Source: an uncultured Enterobacteriaceae bacterium (lineage in GTDB: Bacteria > Pseudomonadota > Gammaproteobacteria > Eutrophobiales > Eutrophobiaceae). From it: 35,977 nt of DNA. The notes under the pieces were generated by a model. It searched no databases, had not been told where the DNA came from, and saw only the letters and a list, made by a program, of their open reading frames with translations. The position numbers and the translations under genes were made by a program. The stretch's first letter is position 1. Each line of letters begins with the position of its first letter. The stretch lies in contig CAZXGW010000001.1 of NCBI GenBank assembly GCA_964640355.1, positions 12,138 to 48,114 on the forward strand. The letters run 5' to 3'. Positions 26,857-35,443 of the stretch are shown in pieces.

Positions 26857-27624
26857 ATGCGGTCTATAAAGAAAATCATCGAACGGATTTTTTCTCGTAC
26901 CTGGAATCAAGACGCGTCTTCGCGACCGCCTGGCCAGCCAGCCGGTCATGACGCAGAGGCCGCTTTAAGCGATAGGTTAAGACAGCGCGAACGAGAACTC
27001 TATGGTGCGGAAACTGTCGAGAGGCAGCGGCTGTATGAGCGGTGGGTGGTTAAGGAATCCTGGCGCCTGCGGGCGGAGGCCCTGCCATTGCTGGCCGGTT
27101 TGGATCCCGATCGCCTTGCCGGAACGGCTGAAGGTCTTCTGGGCGACGCTGAACTCGACGCGCTCTGGGATCATGCACGCCGGTGTGTGGCGCAGGGACT
27201 GTTGCCGGTCATCAATGGCGAAGATGACCCTGAGGCCTGGCGCATACGGCCTTTCGACGCCTTTCGCTGGGCGGCGGTGAGCCGCGTCCATGTCCCCGAA
27301 GGCCTGGCGGCGCTGCTTGATTTCATCGATCGGACCGTGAAGAAGTCCGGCGCGGGAAGCGCGCCCGCCGGTCCCGGCCAACCGTTCGCCCCGGGCGAAG
27401 ATGACAGGGTGCGGGTCCTGGGCGCGGCGCTCGCCCTGCTGGCCGCCGATCCCGGCCGCTGTGTTGACGGGAACGGGCGTGCCTGCGCCGGCAGGATGGC
27501 GCGGCTGATTTCCGAGAAAGGGGCGTTCTGGTTCGGGGATCAGGTGGTGAAACTGCAGGAGCCCGACATCAGGGCGCTGCTGGAGCGCTGGCTGGCCACG
27601 GTCCCGCCGGGATCATCTCAATGA
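26857..27624 (+). CDS. Hypothetical protein (255 aa, Ala/Arg/Leu-rich, predicted soluble)
   Basis: ATG-initiated ORF 18 nt after tilS. I recognise no motif. The composition looks coding rather than shadow, since there is no long competing ORF on the other strand over most of it. Its 3' end overlaps the convergent FHA gene by 7 nt. Confidence 0.55.
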   Translation: MRSIKKIIERIFSRTWNQDASSRPPGQPAGHDAEAALSDRLRQRERELYGAETVERQRLYERWVVKESWRLRAEALPLLAGLDPDRLAGTAEGLLGDAELDALWDHARRCVAQGLLPVINGEDDPEAWRIRPFDAFRWAAVSRVHVPEGLAALLDFIDRTVKKSGAGSAPAGPGQPFAPGEDDRVRVLGAALALLAADPGRCVDGNGRACAGRMARLISEKGAFWFGDQVVKLQEPDIRALLERWLATVPPGSSQ

Positions 27625-29135
27625 GTGACCGGGACCTTGGTGTTCTGCATTACCGTTGATTCTTCCACGGAATACTCCACCGGCAACAGGGTAAAGCGCA
27701 GGGAGATGTCGCCAATCTCGATGATATCCCCTTCGTGCAGCCTGTGACGGTGAATCTTGTTGTTGTTGACGTAGACGCCGTTCAGCGAGTCGAGGTCGAT
27801 GATGGTAAAGACATCGCCCTTGTCCCGGTGAATCTCGGCGTGGCGCCTGGATACCGAGTTGTCGACCAGCGTCAGTTCATTGTCCCGGCTGCGCCCGATT
27901 CGCCAGGACGTGCGCGTAATGGGATAGCGCTTTTTGGTTTCGTCCTGCAGGATGAGGTAGGCATAGGGTTTAAAGTCGCTGAATGCCGCGGGCGCCTCCG
28001 GTTTTTTCTCCTGGCGTCGCAGCAGGAGGAAAAATGAGGCAATGGTGATCAGCAGTACGATCACCAGGGCAATCGGTATCCCTACCCAGATCCAGGTGTC
28101 CACGGGTTTTGCCGGTGCCGGCGTGGTGATGACCCGGATCGGAGGGGGCTCCCGCACCGGCGTGGCTACCGGCGGGGCCGTCGGCTGTATCACGGGCGGT
28201 TCGGCGACCGGCGCGGCCGCCTCGGGGTTGGTGACCGTGAAATTGACCCTGTCCTCCCCGCTTTCCAGGCTGAAATTCAGATTTACCGCGATCTTTTCAT
28301 TCGCCTCCGGCACGATGACCAGCGAGATATCCACGCTCAGCCTCCCGCCGCTTTCGATACGATCGTAGGGAGCGTCCAGGATACCCGCGGGCAGGCTGTA
28401 GTCGCTGCCCGTATCCACGAACAGGCCGCCGGTTTCTTCACTCAGACGGCGCAGGGTCTGCAGGGCCACGGATTGGGCTATCGATCGCTGGTAGCCGAAG
28501 CTCGTGATGATCACGCCTGCCTTTCTCGCCGCGGCCACCACGTCCTGGTGGAAATACGCCTTGTCTTCCGCCAGGCCGTCGGAAAACAGGAAAATGGCCT
28601 TGCGGTCAGCCTGTGTTTTGTCCAGCAGTTCGACCGCGGTCATGACGCTCCGGTAAAGTTCAGTCGTCATTCCGATGGCACGCAATGTCCTGGTCGCCTC
28701 GAGCACCTGGGTCGGCGTGGATCCGAGGGGGGCCTCAACCCGCAGGACCTTGTCGAAGCTGGCGAGACCGATGCGATGGTGGGCCGCGATCTTTCCGAAC
28801 AGCGCTTCGATGTGGGCCTGGTTTTTTTCGATGACGTTCTGCCTGCCCGGATCGCTGGTGTCGACGACAAACAGGATGGCCGTGACGGCATCCGGCCAGG
28901 GATAGGTGACGTTTTCCCTCACCGGCAGGTACGTGTCACCGGCATAGGCGGATACGCCCAGGATCGATTCAGGCGAGCCTGCCCGGTAGGTGCAGTCCAG
29001 CGTCCTGTGATCAGGTGACTGGATGCACGCGACATCGATTTTCTTCCCGGATTCGGGTACGGCCGCCGCGGCGAAGGACATCACGGCCAGGAAGGCCGCG
29101 GACATGTACAGGGCGGCGTGTTTATGTTTCATCAT
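27618..29135 (-). CDS. Single-pass membrane protein: signal peptide, periplasmic vWA-like domain, Pro/Ala-rich linker, TM helix, cytoplasmic FHA domain
   Basis: - N-terminal signal peptide: MMKHKHAALYMSAAFLAVMSFAAAAV.
- vWA-like core: AILFVVDTSDPG...IFLFSDGLAED...GGLFVD.
- Linker: APVAEPPVIQPTAPPVATPVREPPPIRVITTPAPAKP.
- TM helix: WIWVGIPIALVIVLLITIASFFLLL, followed by RRQEKK.
- C-terminal FHA signature: WRIGRSRDNELTLVDNSVSRRHAEI...LNGVYVNN...GDIIEIG. Confidence 0.85.
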   Translation of the reverse strand: MMKHKHAALYMSAAFLAVMSFAAAAVPESGKKIDVACIQSPDHRTLDCTYRAGSPESILGVSAYAGDTYLPVRENVTYPWPDAVTAILFVVDTSDPGRQNVIEKNQAHIEALFGKIAAHHRIGLASFDKVLRVEAPLGSTPTQVLEATRTLRAIGMTTELYRSVMTAVELLDKTQADRKAIFLFSDGLAEDKAYFHQDVVAAARKAGVIITSFGYQRSIAQSVALQTLRRLSEETGGLFVDTGSDYSLPAGILDAPYDRIESGGRLSVDISLVIVPEANEKIAVNLNFSLESGEDRVNFTVTNPEAAAPVAEPPVIQPTAPPVATPVREPPPIRVITTPAPAKPVDTWIWVGIPIALVIVLLITIASFFLLLRRQEKKPEAPAAFSDFKPYAYLILQDETKKRYPITRTSWRIGRSRDNELTLVDNSVSRRHAEIHRDKGDVFTIIDLDSLNGVYVNNNKIHRHRLHEGDIIEIGDISLRFTLLPVEYSVEESTVMQNTKVPVTH

Positions 29136-29147
29136 GATCGCGATCAG

Positions 29148-29669
29148 TTACTTGTCCGGAAACAGGGGGTCGGGTAAATCATAGAATTGTATATTAACAG
29201 ATTCCTGGCCGGATCGGGGCGCGTCCCTCAGTTCATCGATCAGGTTCCGGCGGGTCTCGTTGAACTCGCCCAGTTGCGGGATGCCTTTATCGAGTTTCGA
29301 TTTCACGTTGATGACCAGTTCGTGCAGCGCGCTGGAATAAGGCAGCCGGTAGGCGCGCGGCGGGGCCGGCGACGACAGGTCTTCGATGCGCGCCAGCCAG
29401 AGGTAAACCGCGCCTTCATCGCCGGTGATCTTGTCAGGTTGTTCCACGTGGGCCGCGATCAGCCGGAAGCGTTCCGGCGGGTTGTCGGCTGCGGGCCACC
29501 CGAGCAGCGGCGGAAATGACAGGTAGGTGACGATGTAAAAAGCCGACGTGATGACGACCGTGCCGGTCTTTACTTGCCACGACCAGTTCGAGTAGAGATT
29601 GACGCTGAGGAGCAGCAGGGCGATGAGAACGTACGCGGCCACCAGGCCGGCGATGCTTAGGGTTACCAT
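29148..29669 (-). CDS. Hypothetical 2-TM membrane protein (173 aa)
   Basis: Two N-terminal hydrophobic helices (LSIAGLVAAYVLIALLLLSV and VVITSAFYIVTYLSFPPLL) followed by a soluble domain of about 110 aa. AAGGA-type RBS before ATG 29669. 12 nt upstream of the vWA-FHA gene. Confidence 0.65.
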   Translation of the reverse strand: MVTLSIAGLVAAYVLIALLLLSVNLYSNWSWQVKTGTVVITSAFYIVTYLSFPPLLGWPAADNPPERFRLIAAHVEQPDKITGDEGAVYLWLARIEDLSSPAPPRAYRLPYSSALHELVINVKSKLDKGIPQLGEFNETRRNLIDELRDAPRSGQESVNIQFYDLPDPLFPDK

Positions 29670-29770
29670 GTCTCGTCCTTTGCGGAAACGGTCTCAAGAA
29701 CGCTGCGGTCGCTGATCTGGAGACCGGTTCAAAATGATTTTATCCCCGGGTGATATTCTAAGGCGCGCGT

Positions 29771-30364
29771 TTACCCGAGAGAAACCAGCGGCTTCGGCAG
29801 GAAATTGATGCCGGTGATTTTTCCGTCCCTGCCTATCCTGAACCGGAACGCCGTTTTTTCCTCGCCCTTGCTTTCAAGCGTCAACGTTCCGTAATAGACG
29901 ACTTCGAGCGCGGGGTTGACCTTCACCATCCTGACGTTCACGTCCACGGGCTTGCCGGTCTCGGTGGCATAGTAATGGAGGTTGACGACATATTCACCCG
30001 CCACCACGCCGCGGATGGTCACGACTTCCTGGTTCAGGGGGTTCTGGACCAGTTCGCCGTTGATCGATATCGTATCGTTTACGAGGCCCCTGTCGTCCCG
30101 GTCGAGATGCAGCAGGCCCGCCTCGGGATTCCGGAACCAGATCACCCGCCCGTCGGGATCTTCCACCCACGTGTCGATATCGTCGGGATTGTTGTCTTCC
30201 CATGTGACTGTGATGATGTATTCCGCCTTGGGATCGATGATGCCCGTTTTCGCCTCGGGGTTCATGAACATGATGGCGACCAGGAACAGGAAAGTGAATC
30301 CCAGCAGCGCATTGAACAGCAGATCCGTAAAGGGATCGGACTGCAGGCGTTTTCTCGCGGGCAT
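29771..30364 (-). CDS. ExbD/TolR-like membrane anchor fused to an unrecognised beta-rich periplasmic domain (197 aa)
   Basis: The N-terminus RLQSDPFTDLLFNALLGFTFLFLVAIMFM aligns by eye with the ExbD TPFIDVMLVLLIIFMV segment, including the membrane-embedded Asp. The remainder (IITVTWEDNNPDDIDTWVEDPDGRVIWFRNPEAGLLHLDRDDRG...) does not resemble the ExbD/TolR/MotB periplasmic domains. The start lies 4 nt after the stop of the MotA/ExbB-like gene. Confidence 0.7.
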   Translation of the reverse strand: MPARKRLQSDPFTDLLFNALLGFTFLFLVAIMFMNPEAKTGIIDPKAEYIITVTWEDNNPDDIDTWVEDPDGRVIWFRNPEAGLLHLDRDDRGLVNDTISINGELVQNPLNQEVVTIRGVVAGEYVVNLHYYATETGKPVDVNVRMVKVNPALEVVYYGTLTLESKGEEKTAFRFRIGRDGKITGINFLPKPLVSLG

Positions 30365-30368
30365 CGGG

Positions 30369-31175
30369 CTACGTGATTCTCGGCAGGATGTAAACCTGGG
30401 TCAGGTGCCGGGTCGTCTCGATCAGTTCATCGACGCCGCGGTCGAGCATCTGATATTGCGCGGCCACAAGCATGCTGCAGGTCAGGCCGGCCAGGGTCGT
30501 ATACAGTGCCGTGCCCATGCCCGCGCTCATCTGCTTCAGCACTTTCTGCATGGTTGTGACGTCGAAGTCGGTGATGTTGGCGACCGAGGCCAGCATCATG
30601 ATGAAACCAATGATCGTGCCGAGCAGCCCCATCTTGATCATCAGATCGGCCATGAACCAGCCGATGTCGTGCGGGCCCTTCAGCCTGGATTCGTAAACCC
30701 CGATGAGCTCGTTGCCGGCGGCCGCCGGATCGCCGCCGTTCCTGTTGCCGCCCTTGTGCAGGAGGTCGTGCAGGTAGCTGGCCACCAGGCAGTCCGGCAG
30801 CGAGGCACCGCCGTTGACATGGACGCGGTCATCCTTCCCGTTCAGCTCGAACCCGGAACTTTCCCGAATGAGTTTCTCCACCCGCCTGGAATCATTGATT
30901 TGGGTGGATACGAGGCAAATCCGCCGCGCGCAGTGCGCGGTCATGACGAGGAAGAGCAGCGTTATGGCAAAGGAAATCTTGCTTTTGTCGCCGGCAAAGA
31001 GCGCAAGAATCACGCCCTCCTGCCAGGCCACAAACAGGGAAAAGACGACAATGCCCGTAAATATCGTCCACACGAGCAGCAAATGGTGCGGTCCCCGGGT
31101 CATCGTTCCCGCCACGGAAAACCGGCCGTCACCGCCCGCGGCATGGGTCCGTCCGGCTGCGGCGCGCATGATCAA
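30369..31175 (-). CDS. MotA/TolQ/ExbB family proton-channel protein
   Basis: C-terminal hallmark helices MIKMGLLGTIIGFIMML and GMGTALYTTLAGLTCSMLVAAQY, plus N-terminal TM helices. The longest ORF starts at TTG 31175. ATG 31169 or ATG 31103 (MTRGPHHLLLVW...) are alternatives, and I consider 31103 at least as likely. Confidence 0.85.
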   Translation of the reverse strand: MIMRAAAGRTHAAGGDGRFSVAGTMTRGPHHLLLVWTIFTGIVVFSLFVAWQEGVILALFAGDKSKISFAITLLFLVMTAHCARRICLVSTQINDSRRVEKLIRESSGFELNGKDDRVHVNGGASLPDCLVASYLHDLLHKGGNRNGGDPAAAGNELIGVYESRLKGPHDIGWFMADLMIKMGLLGTIIGFIMMLASVANITDFDVTTMQKVLKQMSAGMGTALYTTLAGLTCSMLVAAQYQMLDRGVDELIETTRHLTQVYILPRIT

Positions 31176-31260
31176 TGATCCGGCTTAAAGGGGCAATCAT
31201 GTTTCGCAGAGGAAAGATTAAGGTCTGCATGCGGGAGCGGGGCGGTGATGCGCTGACCGG

Positions 31261-31842
31261 TTATTCCCGTATCACGACCTTCGTGCCGATGGTGACGTAT
31301 TTTTTCAGGTCGTCAATCTGCTCGTTGGTCAGGGCGATGCAGCCTTCGGTCCAGTTGATCTCGTCATGGATTCTCAATTTACTTTCAGTGGTATTGCCGA
31401 GGCCATGTATGCCGATATAACCGCCGAGCCGCGTGTCCTGGGGCGGTTTTTCCCTGTATTTGACGGCATGGGCGATTCTCTTGAACTCATTGGCGGAAAT
31501 GATCCGGTTCTTGTACCCGTACCAGGCATCGAGCAGGTTCGGGTAATCGAGGTGCATGAAATAGTGAAACCGGCTGTCGTTCTTGAAATCGACGATCTTG
31601 TACACGCCGACGGGAGTTTTCTTGTCCCCGATCTCCCGCTTCGTTCCCTTGCCCCCCTTGCCGTAGGCGATCCGGTACTGCTTTACCGTTCGTTCACCTT
31701 TAACCACGTTCAGCCGCTGTTCAGACTTGAATATCAGGAGAGCGTAATCGCTGTCCATCGCCGGGCAGACGCCGCAAATCAACATCCCCAGCGCCCCCAG
31801 GCACACTCCCCGCATTGCCAACCCGATTCCAGATCGTGTCAT
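31261..31842 (-). CDS. L,D-transpeptidase (YkuD) family protein, secreted
   Basis: Signal peptide, then the YkuD catalytic signature GGYIGIHGLGN...INWTEGCIALTNEQIDDL (His ... Thr-x-Gly-Cys). Confidence 0.88.
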   Translation of the reverse strand: MTRSGIGLAMRGVCLGALGMLICGVCPAMDSDYALLIFKSEQRLNVVKGERTVKQYRIAYGKGGKGTKREIGDKKTPVGVYKIVDFKNDSRFHYFMHLDYPNLLDAWYGYKNRIISANEFKRIAHAVKYREKPPQDTRLGGYIGIHGLGNTTESKLRIHDEINWTEGCIALTNEQIDDLKKYVTIGTKVVIRE

Positions 31843-32134: not shown

Positions 32135-32165
32135 CACAAAAAACAAGGGGCCTTGCGGCCCCTTG
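32135..32165 (-). terminator. Rho-independent terminator downstream of pqqA
   Basis: The minus strand reads CAAGGGGCC-gcaa-GGCCCCTTG followed by TTTTTTG, that is a perfect 9-bp GC-rich stem, a 4-nt loop and a T-tract. It starts about 27 nt after the pqqA stop. Confidence 0.85.
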
Positions 32166-32191
32166 CGGTTTTGACTTTGGCAGTCAGTACA

Positions 32192-32266
32192 TTACTTGTT
32201 GTTAATGTACATCGTGACTTCGAAACCAAAACGGATATCACTGTAATCCGGAGTTTCCCACTTCAT
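32192..32266 (-). CDS. pqqA: PqqA-like pyrroloquinoline quinone precursor peptide (24 aa)
   Basis: My own codon-by-codon translation gives MKWETPDYSDIRFGFEVTMYINNK. This closely parallels known PqqA peptides (e.g. [20 protein letters not shown].NR type), including the cross-linked Glu-x-x-x-Tyr (EVTMY). GAGGTG RBS lies 6 nt upstream of the ATG. The 61-aa track ORF is an upstream over-extension. Confidence 0.85.
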   Translation of the reverse strand: MKWETPDYSDIRFGFEVTMYINNK

Positions 32267-32348
32267 GTTATTCACCTCAAAAGTTTCAAGTGACAAGTTT
32301 TTCAAGACCCGGTGACACCGGGGTACCGGTGTGGTACGGCAGTATATA

Positions 32349-32365
32349 CAGCATGATTCATGCCA
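32349..32365 (-). promoter_or_regulatory. Sigma54 (-24/-12) promoter upstream of pqqA
   Basis: The minus strand reads TGGCATGAATCATGCTG against the consensus TGGCACG-N4-TTGCW. The GG and GC dinucleotides are exactly 12 nt apart. It lies about 85 nt upstream of the pqqA ATG. An AT-rich, IHF-like TTTCAATACATTG sits at 32407-32419, between the promoter and the divergent kinase gene. Confidence 0.6.
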
Positions 32366-32552
32366 TGTGAGAGGCAAGTCGGGATATTGTTTAAAATATA
32401 TCTATATTTCAATACATTGTATGAGTTTCCTGGATTATGGCAGACGGCTGATCCGCGTCCACCTGGCGGGGACTTTGGCGCGTGATGGCTGATGCCGCCC
32501 GGAAGCTGGTCGTTATGAACCAATCTCGGTGTGAATTCGTTATACTCTGCCC

Positions 32553-34025
32553 ATGATCATCAAGCGCCCCGGCTCACTCCGGAAACTTCTTTTCATTCAT
32601 GAAATTGCCTTCCTGCTGCTGGTGGCCGTCACGGGGCTGCTCGGCGGCCTGTCCGCCTACTTCTGGCAGCAGTATTCCACCGAATCGGTGCGGATCCATA
32701 ACCTCGTATACGGTATCGAGCAGATTCGGGGAGAGCTGTTCCGCCAGATCCAGGTTGCCATCCGCGCCAGGCTGCTGGAAGAACCCCGGGCACTTGAACT
32801 CTACGGGGAATATTCGCGCCGGATTGACCGGCAGTTCAATACGCTGAGGCAGAACGCCGCGCACCCCGACGAAGATCTGGCGATTCAGGATCTGCAGGTG
32901 TCCTACCGGGAAATCCAGAAAGACACGAACAAGATCTTTACCGATCCGTACATGATCAGCCGGCAGGTGCGCCTGAAGATCCTCGATCCGAGGTTCGCGG
33001 AAGGGATGGTGGGCAAGTTTGAAGATGAGTACCAGGCCATGAAATCCATGTTGTCGGTGAAGCACGAGGCGCTTGACGCGGTGCTGGAACGCTGGACCCG
33101 GCTCGCGCCGGTGCTGATTCCCATACCGCTGGTGCTGGCGGTCATGATCGTGCTTTATGCGCGCAGCATCATGAACCGTGAGTTCGTGCAGCCCATGTCG
33201 CACGTGATTGAAGGCGCCCAGCACATCAGCCGCGGCCGGTTGAACCTTACCATCCCGGCGACGGGCGTGGACGAGGTGGCCGAGCTGGCCAGGACCATAA
33301 ACGGCATGGCGAGGGATCTCGAGGCGAGCCGGAATGCCCTGGTCGAAAGCGAAAAGCAGGCAGCCCTCGGCGCCCTGGTGCCCGTCGTGGCGCACAACAT
33401 CCGCAACCCCCTGGCCAGCATCCGTGCTACCGCCCAGGTGCTGGATGATGTGGAAAGCGAGGAGGAACTGAAAGAGAGCAGGCAGGCAATCCTGGACACG
33501 ATTGACCGGCTGGGCAGGTGGGTGAACGCGCTGGTGTCCTACCTGCACCCGCTGAGACCGAGTTACCGGCTGGTCTACGCGAGCCAGATGATTGACGCCG
33601 CGCTCTCCCTGCTCAAGCCGAGGCTCGATGAAAAAAACATCACGGTCGAAAAGGTGGGCTGGAAAAGCGACGCGCGCCTCAACGCCGACCCGGACCTGAT
33701 GGAACAGTCCATCTATGCGCTGCTGGCCAATGCCGTGGACGCCTCACCGGAAAATTCCTCGCTGGTCGTGGAAATGGCCAGGGAGGATGCAAACCTGGAA
33801 ATCCGGATCCAGGACAGCGGGCCCGGATTGCCCTTTGACCCGAAACCGGACAAGCTGACCCCGGGCCTCAGCACGAAGCGTTTCGGTACCGGGCTCGGCA
33901 TCCCCATCGCCTTCAAGATCTGCCAGCAGCACGGCTGGAAACTCAGGTTTACGTCGGAAAAGGGGAATGGAACCAAAGCGATAATTACCGCGCCGATCAG
34001 GGTGATCGAGGAAATCAGCGAATGA
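32553..34025 (+). CDS. Membrane sensor histidine kinase (2 TM, periplasmic sensor region, HAMP, HisKA, HATPase_c)
   Basis: TM1 LLFIHEIAFLLLVAVTGLLGGLSAYFW and TM2 LAPVLIPIPLVLAVMIVLYA. HAMP-like segment (...VDEVAELARTINGMARDLE). H-box VVAHNIRNPLASIRA. N/G boxes (LLANAVDAS, IQDSGPGL, GTGLGIPIA). Confidence 0.9.
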   Translation: MIIKRPGSLRKLLFIHEIAFLLLVAVTGLLGGLSAYFWQQYSTESVRIHNLVYGIEQIRGELFRQIQVAIRARLLEEPRALELYGEYSRRIDRQFNTLRQNAAHPDEDLAIQDLQVSYREIQKDTNKIFTDPYMISRQVRLKILDPRFAEGMVGKFEDEYQAMKSMLSVKHEALDAVLERWTRLAPVLIPIPLVLAVMIVLYARSIMNREFVQPMSHVIEGAQHISRGRLNLTIPATGVDEVAELARTINGMARDLEASRNALVESEKQAALGALVPVVAHNIRNPLASIRATAQVLDDVESEEELKESRQAILDTIDRLGRWVNALVSYLHPLRPSYRLVYASQMIDAALSLLKPRLDEKNITVEKVGWKSDARLNADPDLMEQSIYALLANAVDASPENSSLVVEMAREDANLEIRIQDSGPGLPFDPKPDKLTPGLSTKRFGTGLGIPIAFKICQQHGWKLRFTSEKGNGTKAIITAPIRVIEEISE

Positions 34026-35443
34026 AACACGATTCTGACGCGTCCCTGGAACCGGTGAAACTGCCGGCAACGGAGAGGCAGGTGCTGATCGTGGAGGATG
34101 AAAGCGTTTTTGCGCGGGCGGTACAGAAACACCTGGAGCGGTCGGGTTATCTAAGCCAGATCGCGGGCGATCTGAAATCGGCGGACAGGAAATTCCGGGA
34201 ATTGTCCCCCGACCTGGTGCTGCTGGACATGCGGTTGCCTGACGGCTCGGGCCTGGATTTCCTGTCGGACATCAGGAACCGGCACAACTCGAACGCGGCG
34301 GTGCTCGTGATGTCGGCTTACGGGGAGCTGGAGGATGCCGTGGCCGCGATGAAACTGGGCGCCTCGGATTACCTGAAAAAACCCGTGGACCTCGACGAGC
34401 TGCTGATTAACGTCGAGAAGGTGCTCGATAAAAGCGAACTGACGAAGAAACTGACGTATTCCACCAAGCGGGAACAGCATGCCGCGGAAGGCGTCGTGTT
34501 CCTCGGCGAATGCCGGGCGATTGCCGCCGTGCGCCGCCAGGTGGAGCAGATCGCCCGCCTCACCCAGGCCACGGACTCGATCCCCCCGACGGTGCTGATC
34601 CTCGGCGAAACCGGTACGGGCAAGGACGTCCTCGCCAGGCTGCTGCACGCCGGCAGCCGCCGCCGGGATCGGCCTTTCGTCCACGTGGATTGCGCCTCGC
34701 TGCCCAAGGACCTGATCGAGGCGGAGCTGTTCGGCCATGAAAAAGGCGCCTTCACCAATGCCCACATCGCACGCACCGGGCTGATCGAGGCGGCTGAAGA
34801 CGGCGTGCTGTTTCTCGACGAGATTGCCGAACTGCCGCCGGGCCTGCAGTCCAAGCTGCTGGCCGTACTTGAACGCCGAACGCTGCGGCGGGTTGGCACG
34901 ACCCGGGAGCGGCCGGTGGCCGCGTGGATCATTGCGGCCACGAACCGGGACGTCGGTGAATTGATTGAGCAGGGCGAGTTCCGATCCGATCTGTATTACC
35001 GGCTCAACGTGCTGAACATTACTCTCCCGCCGCTCAGGGAACGGGAAGGTGACATCATGATCCTGGCGAATTATTTTGCGGAGCAGACGGCGCGCCGTTA
35101 CGGCCTGGATAAACCCGTCTTCCGCAAGGATGCGGAGGAAGCCATGCTGAAAAACCCCTGGCCGGGCAACGTGCGCGAGATGAAACACCTGATTGAACGG
35201 GCCGTGTTGCTGACCGGCGGCGGCGAACTTGGCGCCGAAGCCATGTCCCTCTCTCCCGGGAGTGCCTCCAACGCCGGCGAACCGGTTCGCGACCTTGAGG
35301 ATTTGACGCTGGATTCGGCGGAAGTGTTGCTCATCAAACAGGCGCTGGAGAGAACCGGGTGGAATGTCTCCAGGGCAGCACGTATATTAGGCATCACCCG
35401 CATGGCCTTGCGTTATCGCATGAAAAAATATCACCTGAAGTAG
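34022..35443 (+). CDS. NtrC-family sigma54-dependent response regulator (REC, AAA+ sigma54-interaction domain, Fis-type HTH)
   Basis: REC domain with LVLLDMRLPDGSG and KLGASDYLKKP. Walker A GETGTGKD. Sigma54-contact loop EKGAFTNA (a variant of GAFTGA). Also LFLDEI and RSDLYYRL. C-terminal HTH NVSRAARILGITRMALRYRMKKY. ATGA overlap with the kinase gene. Confidence 0.93.
   Translation: MKHDSDASLEPVKLPATERQVLIVEDESVFARAVQKHLERSGYLSQIAGDLKSADRKFRELSPDLVLLDMRLPDGSGLDFLSDIRNRHNSNAAVLVMSAYGELEDAVAAMKLGASDYLKKPVDLDELLINVEKVLDKSELTKKLTYSTKREQHAAEGVVFLGECRAIAAVRRQVEQIARLTQATDSIPPTVLILGETGTGKDVLARLLHAGSRRRDRPFVHVDCASLPKDLIEAELFGHEKGAFTNAHIARTGLIEAAEDGVLFLDEIAELPPGLQSKLLAVLERRTLRRVGTTRERPVAAWIIAATNRDVGELIEQGEFRSDLYYRLNVLNITLPPLREREGDIMILANYFAEQTARRYGLDKPVFRKDAEEAMLKNPWPGNVREMKHLIERAVLLTGGGELGAEAMSLSPGSASNAGEPVRDLEDLTLDSAEVLLIKQALERTGWNVSRAARILGITRMALRYRMKKYHLK

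What the first reader, a model, noticed from the sequence alone, without database searches (positions are those of the whole stretch)
32192..32266. Stand-alone pqqA-like precursor peptide gene with no pqqBCDE next to it
A 24-codon ORF (MKWETPDYSDIRFGFEVTMYINNK) has a good RBS and carries the PqqA Glu-x-x-x-Tyr core in the conserved GFEVTMY context. Yet it is a monocistronic unit: its own promoter upstream, and a strong intrinsic terminator about 27 nt downstream.

Its neighbours are a divergently transcribed kinase/regulator pair on the upstream side and, downstream beyond the terminator, an L,D-transpeptidase gene. Canonically pqqA is the first gene of pqqABCDE(F).

An unlinked, separately regulated copy implies either dosage control of the precursor for PQQ synthesis encoded elsewhere (multiple pqqA copies are known in some methylotrophs) or a PqqA-like peptide used by another maturation system. 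Automated callers often miss genes this small.
Basis: partly seen in the sequence, partly recalled or inferred. Interest (0 to 1): 0.62.

Follow-up and report, generated by a model that had tools for sequence, protein, structure and literature searches.

The report
Stand-alone, sigma-54-switched PQQ precursor gene
The 24-codon ORF is a genuine pqqA gene (the peptide that bacteria turn into the cofactor PQQ); it is detached from the PQQ enzymes, as is usual in this bacterial family and known in some methanol users, but it appears to share one undescribed sigma-54 switch with them, run by the sensor/regulator pair next door.

Summary
Observation confirmed. On the minus strand, 32266-32192 encodes MKWETPDYSDIRFGFEVTMYINNK, with a GAGGTG RBS and a 10-bp GC-rich terminator 25 nt after the stop. 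It scores 46.8 bits on TIGR02107 (cut-off 20) and 44.5 on PF08042 (cut-off 21.1).

The genome is an 89%-complete gammaproteobacterial MAG. It has a second stand-alone pqqA, pqqBCDE on a 3-kb contig, rpoN, one XoxF-like PQQ dehydrogenase and no second PqqD/SPASM system.

Being detached is the family norm: 1-4 dispersed pqqA copies per genome, and pqqB had no adjacent pqqA in 9 of 11 genomes checked. Unlinked and multi-copy pqqA are already published for methylotrophs.

The gene is not separately regulated. Of 28 family pqqA upstream regions, 27 carry a sigma-54 -24/-12 element and 26 a TGGTT-N6-AACCA palindrome about 100-170 bp further upstream. The same pair precedes pqqB(C)DE and, in some relatives, KatG or cytochrome c peroxidase.

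The neighbouring kinase and sigma-54 activator (loop GAFTNA) lie divergently beside a pqqA in 29 of 33 family genomes and are absent where pqqA is absent.

Best reading: a dispersed PQQ regulon under a dedicated two-component sigma-54 activator. I found no paper describing this. No transcript data could be obtained.

The parts
32192..32266 (-). pqqA coding sequence: 24 codons plus TAA. Peptide MKWETPDYSDIRFGFEVTMYINNK, with cross-link residues Glu16 and Tyr20.
   Evidence: TIGR02107 46.8 bits; PF08042 44.5 bits; codon-position conservation.
32273..32278 (-). Shine-Dalgarno GAGGTG, ending 6 nt before the ATG.
   Evidence: a purine-rich RBS is conserved at this position in the alignment of relatives.
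32350..32365 (-). Sigma-54 type -24/-12 promoter TGGCATGAATCATGCT (GG at 32364-32363, GC at 32352-32351). The predicted start is near 32339, giving a transcript of about 200 nt.
   Evidence: The motif is on the same strand in 27 of 28 family pqqA upstream regions, 0 on the opposite strand and 0.13 in shuffles. rpoN is present. The start site is inferred, not measured.
32407..32419 (-). AT-rich block with an IHF-like site (CAATGTATTGAAA) between enhancer and promoter.
   Evidence: A conserved TTGAT(T/A) island in the footprint alignment. The match to the IHF consensus is judged by eye; function is inferred.
32507..32522 (-). Upstream activating site 1: palindrome TGGTTCATAACGACCA. It lies 156 nt upstream of the -24 element and about 30 nt from the kinase ATG.
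   Evidence: GGTY-N6-RACC is present in 26 of 28 family pqqA upstream regions (shuffles 0.4) and correctly spaced in 25.
32487..32500 (-). Degenerate second half of the tandem site (GGGCGGCATCAGCC), 21 nt after site 1.
   Evidence: Conserved G...A.CCA columns in the alignment. Other pqqA copies have two perfect palindromes 22-23 nt apart. This is the weakest of the parts.
32137..32166 (-). Intrinsic terminator: GCAAGGGGCC-GCAA-GGCCCCTTGT, then a T-run.
   Evidence: 10 pairs, 7 GC. Compensatory changes in L017 and L011.
32553..34025 (+). Sensor histidine kinase: two TM segments, a helical periplasmic domain of about 140 aa with no Pfam match, then HAMP, HisKA and HATPase_c. Proposed sensor of the PQQ regulon.
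   Evidence: Orthologues (52-77% identity) are divergently adjacent to a pqqA in 29 of 33 family genomes and absent from 6 of the 7 genomes lacking pqqA.
34022..35443 (+). Response regulator / sigma-54 enhancer-binding protein (REC, AAA+ Sigma54_activat, HTH_8). Its L1 loop reads GAFTNA (residues 242-247, nt 34745-34762). Proposed binder of the TGGTT-N6-AACCA sites.
   Evidence: PF00158 206 bits; loop variant conserved in orthologues. Binding is inferred from synteny and co-occurrence, not shown.
32541..32546 (+). Conserved -10-like TATACT, 6 nt before the kinase ATG with no Shine-Dalgarno. This suggests a leaderless kinase mRNA whose -35 region overlaps upstream site 1 (possible autoregulation).
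   Evidence: Conserved AGTATAAC island in the alignment. Interpretation is inferred.

Best explanation
**What it is.** The ORF is a functional pqqA, one of two stand-alone copies in this genome. It encodes the peptide that PqqD/PqqE cross-link at Glu16-Tyr20 and PqqB/PqqC finish into PQQ. The likely client is the genome's single lanthanide-type (XoxF-like) alcohol dehydrogenase.

**How it is expressed.** It is made as a short transcript of about 200 nt, from a sigma-54 promoter to a strong terminator.

**Proposed control.**
1. The divergent kinase phosphorylates the adjacent NtrC-family activator.
2. The activator binds the tandem TGGTT-N6-AACCA sites about 150 bp upstream.
3. With IHF-type bending, it opens the sigma-54 promoter.

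**Why the genes are detached.** The same enhancer-plus-promoter cassette sits in front of the other pqqA copy and, in relatives, in front of pqqB(C)DE. The pathway therefore runs as a dispersed regulon. Detached, terminated and duplicated pqqA genes let the consumed substrate be made in large excess over the catalytic enzymes while one switch governs both.

**Shown:**
- Gene identity and purifying selection.
- The cis-elements and their family-wide conservation.
- Synteny and co-occurrence with the two-component system.
- Presence of rpoN and pqqBCDE.

**Inferred:**
- Transcription from this promoter.
- That this regulator is the one binding the palindrome.
- The signal sensed.
- The stoichiometry rationale.
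For: **Identity.**
- TIGR02107 46.8 bits against a cut-off of 20, and PF08042 44.5 against 21.1.
- The E-x3-Y core is present.
- Variable columns by codon position are 5, 6 and 21.

**Pathway in the same genome.**
- PqqB 371 bits, PqqC 345, PqqD 123 and PqqE 557 on contig C203.
- rpoN scores 499 bits.
- One PQQ alcohol dehydrogenase with the WDFDG lanthanide-type Asp.

**Detachment is the family norm**.

**Cis-elements.**
- Sigma-54 motif in 27 of 28 family upstream regions and the palindrome in 26 of 28, against 0.13 and 0.4 in shuffles. Both are correctly spaced in 25 of 28.
- In the alignment these are conserved islands within otherwise diverged DNA.
- The composite pattern gives 62 hits in 41 family genomes against 6 for the reversed control. 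Five of the six genomes lacking both the kinase and pqqA have none; the sixth (G046) has one GC-rich hit, probably chance.
- The same cassette precedes pqqB in G018, G022, G010, G009 and G020, and in G001 with a variant -12 (AGC) that the search pattern missed.
- It also precedes pqqCDE or pqqBCDE in G005, G015, G013, G042, G024, G012 and G021.
- An outgroup family with the canonical pqqA-pqqB arrangement (G028) has neither motif.

**Regulator link.**
- The kinase is adjacent and divergent to a pqqA in 29 of 33 genomes.
- Presence/absence table 32/1/1/6, Fisher p = 1.2e-5.
- The regulator has REC, Sigma54_activat and HTH_8 domains.
Against:
- The regulator's sigma-54 contact loop is GAFTNA, not the canonical GAFTGA. 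Position-5 variants such as GAFTDA and GAFTHA occur in enhancer-binding proteins of D. vulgaris that the authors judged able to activate (PMC4641369), but GAFTNA itself is untested.
- The genome has at least two other sigma-54 activators, and either could be the real binder.
- In this genome the upstream region of pqqB is lost at a contig end. Co-regulation with pqqBCDE is therefore extrapolated from relatives, and a third, pqqB-linked pqqA cannot be excluded.
- Upstream site 2 in the window is degenerate.
- G014 has pqqA without the kinase, and G005 and G045 have the pair away from pqqA.
Confidence: 0.72

Rival explanations
1. A genuine, sigma-54-dependent pqqA, but the adjacent two-component pair is not its activator. 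Another enhancer-binding protein binds the palindrome, and the neighbouring pair is conserved there for another reason, for example it is itself a target or it acts as a repressor.
For: The non-canonical GAFTNA loop. Two other activators with canonical loops exist in the genome. Upstream site 1 overlaps the kinase promoter region, which also fits pure autoregulation. G014 keeps pqqA without this kinase.
Against: Adjacency in 29 of 33 genomes and joint loss in 6 genomes. The loop keeps the sigma-54-contacting Phe and Thr. Position-5 variants are accepted as functional (PMC4641369). All pqqA, pqqB and pqqCDE targets carry sigma-54 promoters, which need such an activator.
Confidence: 0.15
2. A PqqA-like peptide that feeds a different, non-PQQ maturation system.
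For: It is unlinked to pqqBCDE. The assembly is 11% incomplete, so an undetected system is possible.
Against: Only one PqqD-family and one SPASM-domain gene are in the assembly, both in pqqBCDE. The peptide is near-identical to the pqqB-linked copies in G006 and G019. It shares its promoter cassette with pqqB(C)DE in relatives. It scores as an equivalog-level PqqA.
Confidence: 0.03
3. A decaying or silent duplicate: a chance-preserved small ORF with no current function, with PQQ made from another, unassembled, pqqB-linked copy.
For: The 5' end of pqqB and its upstream DNA are missing from the assembly. There are no expression data.
Against: Strong purifying selection on the peptide. The RBS, promoter, enhancer and terminator are conserved across genera with 52-77% identical flanking proteins. 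Most relatives with complete genomes have no pqqB-linked copy at all.
Confidence: 0.03

Closest known systems
PqqA of canonical pqqABCDE(F/G) operons (Klebsiella pneumoniae, Pseudomonas, Methylorubrum extorquens; TIGR02107 / PF08042)
   Same: Same peptide family: 24 aa, a W-x-x-P leader and a GFEVTMY core with the Glu and Tyr that become PQQ. The same PqqB/C/D/E partners are present in the genome.
   Different: It is not the first gene of the operon. It is monocistronic, with its own promoter and terminator, and lies on a different contig from pqqBCDE. In Pseudomonas the operon is controlled by AgmR-type (LuxR-family) regulation (PMC12997753), not a sigma-54 enhancer.
Unlinked, highly expressed pqqA of Methylosinus trichosporium OB3b (PMC3615186)
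   Same: pqqA was unannotated, sits far from pqqBCDE and pqqFG, and is transcribed as a short, very abundant RNA while the enzyme genes are modestly expressed. That is the same substrate-versus-catalyst logic.
   Different: It is an alphaproteobacterial peptide type. No regulator, sigma-54 promoter or enhancer was described there. Expression was measured there and only inferred here.
Multi-copy pqqA of Methylophilaceae (3-12 copies with a single pqqBCDE; PMC4109929)
   Same: Several dispersed pqqA copies per genome against one set of enzyme genes.
   Different: Here there are only 1-4 copies, and usually none is linked to pqqB. The paper gives no regulatory mechanism.
NtrB/NtrC-class two-component systems with sigma-54 enhancer-binding regulators (best NCBIfam matches AtoS/AtoC and ZraS/ZraR, all far below their cut-offs)
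   Same: Domain architecture: HAMP-HisKA-HATPase kinase and REC-AAA+-HTH_8 regulator. Tandem palindromic sites lie about 100-170 bp upstream of a -24/-12 promoter, with an AT-rich IHF-like spacer.
   Different: It is not an equivalog of any named system (AtoC 364 bits against a cut-off of 714). The L1 loop is GAFTNA. The targets are PQQ biosynthesis genes and, in some relatives, periplasmic peroxidases. The sensed signal is unknown.

Membership tests
PqqA (TIGR02107 / PF08042) | Profile score above the curated cut-off | tested here: met
   46.8 bits against 20; 44.5 bits against 21.1.
PqqA (TIGR02107 / PF08042) | Conserved Glu-x-x-x-Tyr that is cross-linked into PQQ, in a peptide of about 20-40 aa | tested here: met
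   Glu16 and Tyr20 in GFEVTMY, in a 24-aa peptide. Both are invariant in 29 family copies.
PqqA (TIGR02107 / PF08042) | PqqB, PqqC, PqqD and PqqE encoded in the same genome | tested here: met
   Contig C203: PqqB 371, PqqC 345, PqqD 123 and PqqE 557 bits, all above cut-off. PqqB is cut at its 5' end and PqqE at its stop by the contig ends.
PqqA (TIGR02107 / PF08042) | Position as first gene of pqqABCDE (typical, not defining) | tested here: not met
   No pqq enzyme gene lies within the 36-kb window. In relatives, pqqB lacks an adjacent pqqA in 9 of 11 genomes.
PqqA (TIGR02107 / PF08042) | Transcribed, translated and converted to PQQ | not testable with these tools
Only indirect support is available, from codon-position selection.
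Sigma-54-dependent promoter with enhancer | -24 GG and -12 GC elements with canonical spacing | tested here: met
   TGGCATGAATCATGCT at 32365-32350. Conserved in 27 of 28 family upstream regions, against 0.13 in shuffles.
Sigma-54-dependent promoter with enhancer | rpoN present in the genome | tested here: met
   TIGR02395 499 bits at C9:7987-9381.
Sigma-54-dependent promoter with enhancer | Upstream activator sites about 80-200 bp from the promoter | tested here: met
   The palindrome lies 156 nt upstream here. It is correctly spaced in 25 of 28 family regions.
Sigma-54-dependent promoter with enhancer | Cognate AAA+ activator with a GAFTGA sigma-54 contact loop | tested here: inconclusive
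   PF00158 scores 206 bits, but the loop is GAFTNA. It is conserved as GAFT(N/D/S)A, once GAYTNA, in 15 orthologues. Similar position-5 variants are considered functional (PMC4641369).
Sigma-54-dependent promoter with enhancer | Transcription abolished without RpoN or the activator | not testable with these tools
   This needs genetics in a cultured relative.
Rho-independent terminator | GC-rich hairpin followed by a U-run | tested here: met
   A 10-bp stem with 7 GC pairs, a loop of 4, then TTTTTTG. Covarying in relatives.

The most novel reading that the evidence does not exclude
In this gammaproteobacterial family, and in at least three neighbouring families, PQQ biosynthesis is a dispersed sigma-54 regulon run by a dedicated, so far unnamed two-component system. 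Its activator has a GAFTNA loop and recognises TGGTT-N6-AACCA. The system switches on the pqqA minigenes and pqqB(C)DE together and, in some genera, a secreted KatG or a cytochrome c peroxidase. That would tie cofactor supply to periplasmic peroxide defence. The kinase's unassigned helical periplasmic domain would then sense a signal of quinoprotein demand, such as alcohol, lanthanide, PQQ or peroxide.
Probability: 0.55. Interest if true: 0.6.

Novelty: new variant of a known kind. Interest (0 to 1): 0.42.

Why it matters
The gene itself is ordinary: unlinked and multi-copy pqqA genes are published, and here they are the family rule. It is still useful for annotation, because public gene calls on four contigs with this locus miss it, which makes genomes look PQQ-incompetent.

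What would matter is the regulation. How bacteria set PQQ supply is known only for a few model organisms, through LuxR-, LysR- or OmpR-type regulators.

A conserved kinase / sigma-54 activator pair with a defined operator in front of every pqq transcription unit would be a directly testable master switch for PQQ synthesis in an uncultured groundwater and warm-spring lineage that carries lanthanide-type alcohol dehydrogenases. It would also explain how physically scattered pathway genes stay coordinated while substrate and enzymes are made at very different levels.

Tried and rejected
- **Upstream of pqqB in this genome.** Contig C203 ends inside pqqB. I used relatives instead.
- **Other regulon members in this genome.**
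  - A relaxed motif scan gave seven extra hits. All looked intragenic or ambiguous in this 60% GC genome, and I did not count them.
  - Strict palindromes gave perfect 10/10 matches only at the second pqqA.
  - The XoxF-like dehydrogenase gene has no sigma-54 site upstream.
  - There is no KatG or CCP homologue in the assembly.
- **Naming the family.** The habitat (a warm spring at Beatty, Nevada) came from a JGI sample id.
- **Literature.** Searches for pqqA with sigma-54, sigma54 or rpoN gave only incidental co-mentions. This covers open-access text only, so absence is not proof.
- **A second maturation system.** Rejected after the PqqD and SPASM searches.
- **A sigma-70 promoter for pqqA.** The two sigma-70-like matches on this strand (32461-32434 and 32443-32416) score 9 of 12 and fall in non-conserved DNA.

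Full report
**1.

The ORF lies on the minus strand at 32266-32192 and translates to MKWETPDYSDIRFGFEVTMYINNK.
- GAGGTG ends 6 nt before the ATG.
- A hairpin with a 10-bp stem, 7 GC pairs and a 4-nt loop (32166-32143), followed by TTTTTTG, begins 25 nt after the stop.
- Upstream and divergent are a HAMP/HisKA/HATPase_c histidine kinase (32553-34025) and a REC/Sigma54_activat/HTH_8 response regulator (34022-35443).
- Downstream on the same strand is a YkuD L,D-transpeptidase (31842-31261) with its own sigma-70-like promoter match.
- The rest of the window is core housekeeping: rpsB, tsf, pyrH, cdsA, dxr, rseP, bamA, skp, lpxD/A/B, rnhB, dnaE, accA and tilS.

**2. It is a real PqqA.**

- The peptide scores 46.8 bits on TIGR02107 (cut-off 20) and 44.5 on PF08042 (cut-off 21.1).
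- It has the Glu16-x3-Tyr20 pair.
- Among 29 copies from relatives, all different at the nucleotide level, 21 of 24 third codon positions vary against 5 first and 6 second positions. Mean pairwise differences are 8.5 against 0.8 and 1.5. That is the signature of a translated gene under purifying selection.
- Public gene calls on four metagenome contigs with the identical locus skip it.

**3. Genome context.**

The window belongs to a 1.82-Mb, 296-contig, 89%-complete MAG with 60% GC. The same DNA occurs in a warm-spring metagenome from Beatty, Nevada. The closest named relatives are groundwater 'Gammaproteobacteria bacterium' MAGs.

The genome holds:
- a second stand-alone pqqA on contig C18 (MKWETPSYNDIRFGFEVTMYINNK; 11 of 75 nt differ), also with an RBS and terminator;
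- pqqB-C-D-E on the 3-kb contig C203, all above their cut-offs, with pqqB cut at its 5' end;
- rpoN;
- one PQQ alcohol dehydrogenase with the WDFDG aspartate typical of lanthanide enzymes, followed by a cupredoxin-like and a MoxJ-like gene.

Only one PqqD-family and one SPASM-domain gene exist in the assembly, both in pqqBCDE. A second maturation system for this peptide is therefore unsupported.

**4. Detachment is the rule in this family.**

- 33 of 40 other family genomes have pqqA, with 1-4 copies that are mostly dispersed.
- Comparing pqqB and pqqA coordinates in 11 family genomes, pqqB has an adjacent pqqA in only 2 (G006, G019). In the other 9 the nearest copy is 25 kb or more away, or on another contig.
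- Unlinked pqqA with a short, very abundant transcript is published for Methylosinus trichosporium OB3b (PMC3615186).
- 3-12 copies against a single pqqBCDE are published for Methylophilaceae (PMC4109929).

As a stand-alone pqqA, the finding is correct but of a known kind.

**5. It is not separately regulated.**

Upstream of the window's pqqA lies TGGCATGAATCATGCT (32365-32350), a sigma-54 -24/-12 element. The C18 copy has TGGCATAAAACCTGCT.
- In 28 family pqqA upstream regions the motif occurs on the coding strand in 27, on the opposite strand in 0, and in 0.13 per shuffle set.
- A palindrome GGTY-N6-RACC (full form TGGTT-N6-AACCA), often two copies 22-23 nt apart, lies 100-170 nt further upstream in 26 of 28 regions (shuffles 0.4). 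It is correctly spaced in 25. In the window it is TGGTTCATAACGACCA (32522-32507), with a degenerate second site 21 nt on.

An alignment of nine orthologous intergenic regions shows conserved islands in otherwise diverged DNA. These are the palindromes, a TTGAT-type IHF-like block, the -24/-12 element, the RBS, the coding sequence and the terminator. The terminator covaries: GGGGCC/GGCCCC becomes GGGATC/GATCCC or GGGGCT/AGCCCC.

An outgroup family with the canonical pqqA-pqqB arrangement (G028) lacks both motifs.

**6. The same cassette drives the enzyme genes.**

- Upstream of unlinked pqqB in G018, G022, G010, G009 and G020 there is again a palindrome or a variant of it, an AT-rich spacer and TGGCAY-N5-NCGCT. 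G001 has the same layout with a variant -12 (AGC) that the search pattern missed.
- A genome-wide search of 41 family genomes for GGTTN6RACC-N{120,150}-TGGCAYN7GC gave 62 hits against 6 for the reversed control. Five of the six genomes lacking both pqqA and the kinase have none. The sixth (G046) has a single GC-rich hit, probably chance.
- Hits outside pqqA and pqqB led to pqqCDE (G005, G015, G013, G042, G024) and to pqqBCDE (G012, G021).
- They also led to a signal-peptide KatG catalase-peroxidase (G020, G050, G051) and a di-haem cytochrome c peroxidase (G004).

PQQ synthesis therefore looks like a dispersed regulon sharing one enhancer type, extended in some genera to periplasmic peroxide removal.

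**7. The neighbouring two-component pair is the likely regulator.**

- Kinase orthologues (52-77% identity) occur in 33 of 40 family genomes. In 29 they lie divergently within about 300-600 bp of a pqqA. One more sits at a contig edge, and three are elsewhere or have no detectable pqqA.
- Of the 7 genomes without the kinase, 6 also lack pqqA. The contingency table is 32/1/1/6, Fisher p = 1.2e-5.
- The regulator has the full NtrC-class architecture. It matches no named equivalog (AtoC 364 bits against a cut-off of 714).
- Its sigma-54 contact loop reads GAFTNA. That reading is conserved in 11 of the 15 orthologues examined. The others read GAYTNA (L036), GAFTDA (G009) and GAFTSA (G005, G045). 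G005 and G045 are the two genomes where the pair is not next to pqqA.
- Position-5 variants such as GAFTDA and GAFTHA occur in D. vulgaris enhancer-binding proteins that the authors judged able to activate (PMC4641369). I therefore read this as a subfamily signature rather than a loss of function, but it is the main uncertainty.
- Upstream site 1 sits about 30 nt from the kinase ATG. That ATG is preceded, 6 nt away, by a conserved TATACT and no Shine-Dalgarno. This suggests a leaderless kinase mRNA and autoregulation.

**8. Mechanism proposed.**

A signal at the kinase's unassigned helical periplasmic domain leads to phosphorylation of the regulator. The regulator then binds the tandem palindromes and, with DNA bending, opens the sigma-54 promoter. 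The product is an RNA of about 200 nt (predicted 32339 to 32137, strongly structured, z = -3.6) encoding only PqqA.

PqqA is consumed one per PQQ, whereas PqqB-E turn over. Detached, terminated and duplicated minigenes under the same switch would give high substrate output with modest enzyme output. The promoter, enhancer, synteny and co-occurrence are shown. Binding, sigma-54 dependence, the signal and the stoichiometry rationale are inferred.

**9. Comparison and novelty.**

Membership in PqqA is met on every testable criterion. Only the typical operon position is not met, and that is not defining.

The regulatory layout is classical NtrC-type enhancer logic. I found no open-access paper linking pqq genes to a sigma-54 promoter or a dedicated enhancer-binding protein. 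In Pseudomonas, pqq control runs through AgmR-type regulators (PMC12997753).

Earlier unchecked notes of this scan report the same TGGTT-N6-AACCA/sigma-54 pqqA module in other lineages. I had derived the motifs independently before reading all but the first of those notes. They agree with my result but are not independent evidence.

**10. Verdict.**

The gene is ordinary in kind. The family-wide sigma-54/two-component PQQ regulon it belongs to is a plausible, testable and apparently undescribed regulatory variant. Interest is moderate (0.42).

Noticed in passing
window 34745-34762 (+); L098-L109, L033, L034, L036: The sigma-54 activator's L1 loop reads GAFTNA instead of GAFTGA. This is conserved across genera. 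Exceptions are GAYTNA in L036, GAFTDA in G009, and GAFTSA in G005 and G045, the two genomes where the pair is not next to pqqA.
   Followed up: partly
window 32539-32555 (+): The kinase gene has a conserved TATACT box 6 nt before its ATG and no Shine-Dalgarno, in the window and most aligned relatives. This suggests a leaderless mRNA. Its -35 region overlaps the TGGTT-N6-AACCA site, which suggests autoregulation.
   Followed up: partly
L089 (G020), L091 (G050), L097 (G051), L095 (G004): In relatives, the same palindrome plus sigma-54 cassette precedes a signal-peptide KatG catalase-peroxidase or a di-haem cytochrome c peroxidase. This links PQQ supply to periplasmic peroxide removal. This genome's assembly has neither enzyme.
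   Followed up: partly
L086, L087, L088, L093, L090 against L079, L081, L082: In G005, G015 and G013 pqqB is split from pqqCDE. pqqCDE has the sigma-54 cassette. pqqB lies 3.5-5 kb away in the opposite orientation and has no such promoter (in G005 and G015 it directly follows another ORF). G042 and G024 likewise have the cassette directly before pqqC, but their pqqB was not located.
   Followed up: partly
L065 (own genome contig C17) 652-3954: The only PQQ alcohol dehydrogenase has the lanthanide-type WDFDG aspartate. It is followed by a cupredoxin (pseudoazurin-like, C-x2-H-x4-M) rather than a cytochrome cL gene, then a MoxJ-like binding protein. No sigma-54 site lies upstream.
   Followed up: partly
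L069-L072 (public metagenome contigs identical to the window locus): The deposited gene calls list nothing between ykuD and the kinase, so pqqA is unannotated in all four.
   Followed up: yes
window 32315-32337 (-): The predicted 5' UTR begins with short GC-rich hairpins. One possible stem is ACACCGG-TACC-CCGGTGT; the energy-minimised fold instead pairs GUACC/GGUAC and then CCCGGU/ACCGGG. Similar GC-rich stems appear in several relatives. They may be stabilising 5' stem-loops for an abundant short mRNA.
   Followed up: partly
window 27618-31842 (-): Downstream of pqqA, ykuD is followed by a MotA/ExbB-like gene, two ORFs with no family match and a vWA-FHA membrane protein. ykuD and the MotA-like gene stay next to pqqA in several relatives.
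   Followed up: no
L005 (G034), L008 (G039), L016 (G038): pqqA copies in three other families of the class also have a -24/-12 element. In two of them (L008, L016) a GGTT-N6-RACC palindrome is also present, and L005 has a 50%-identical kinase alongside. The module therefore extends beyond this family.
   Followed up: partly
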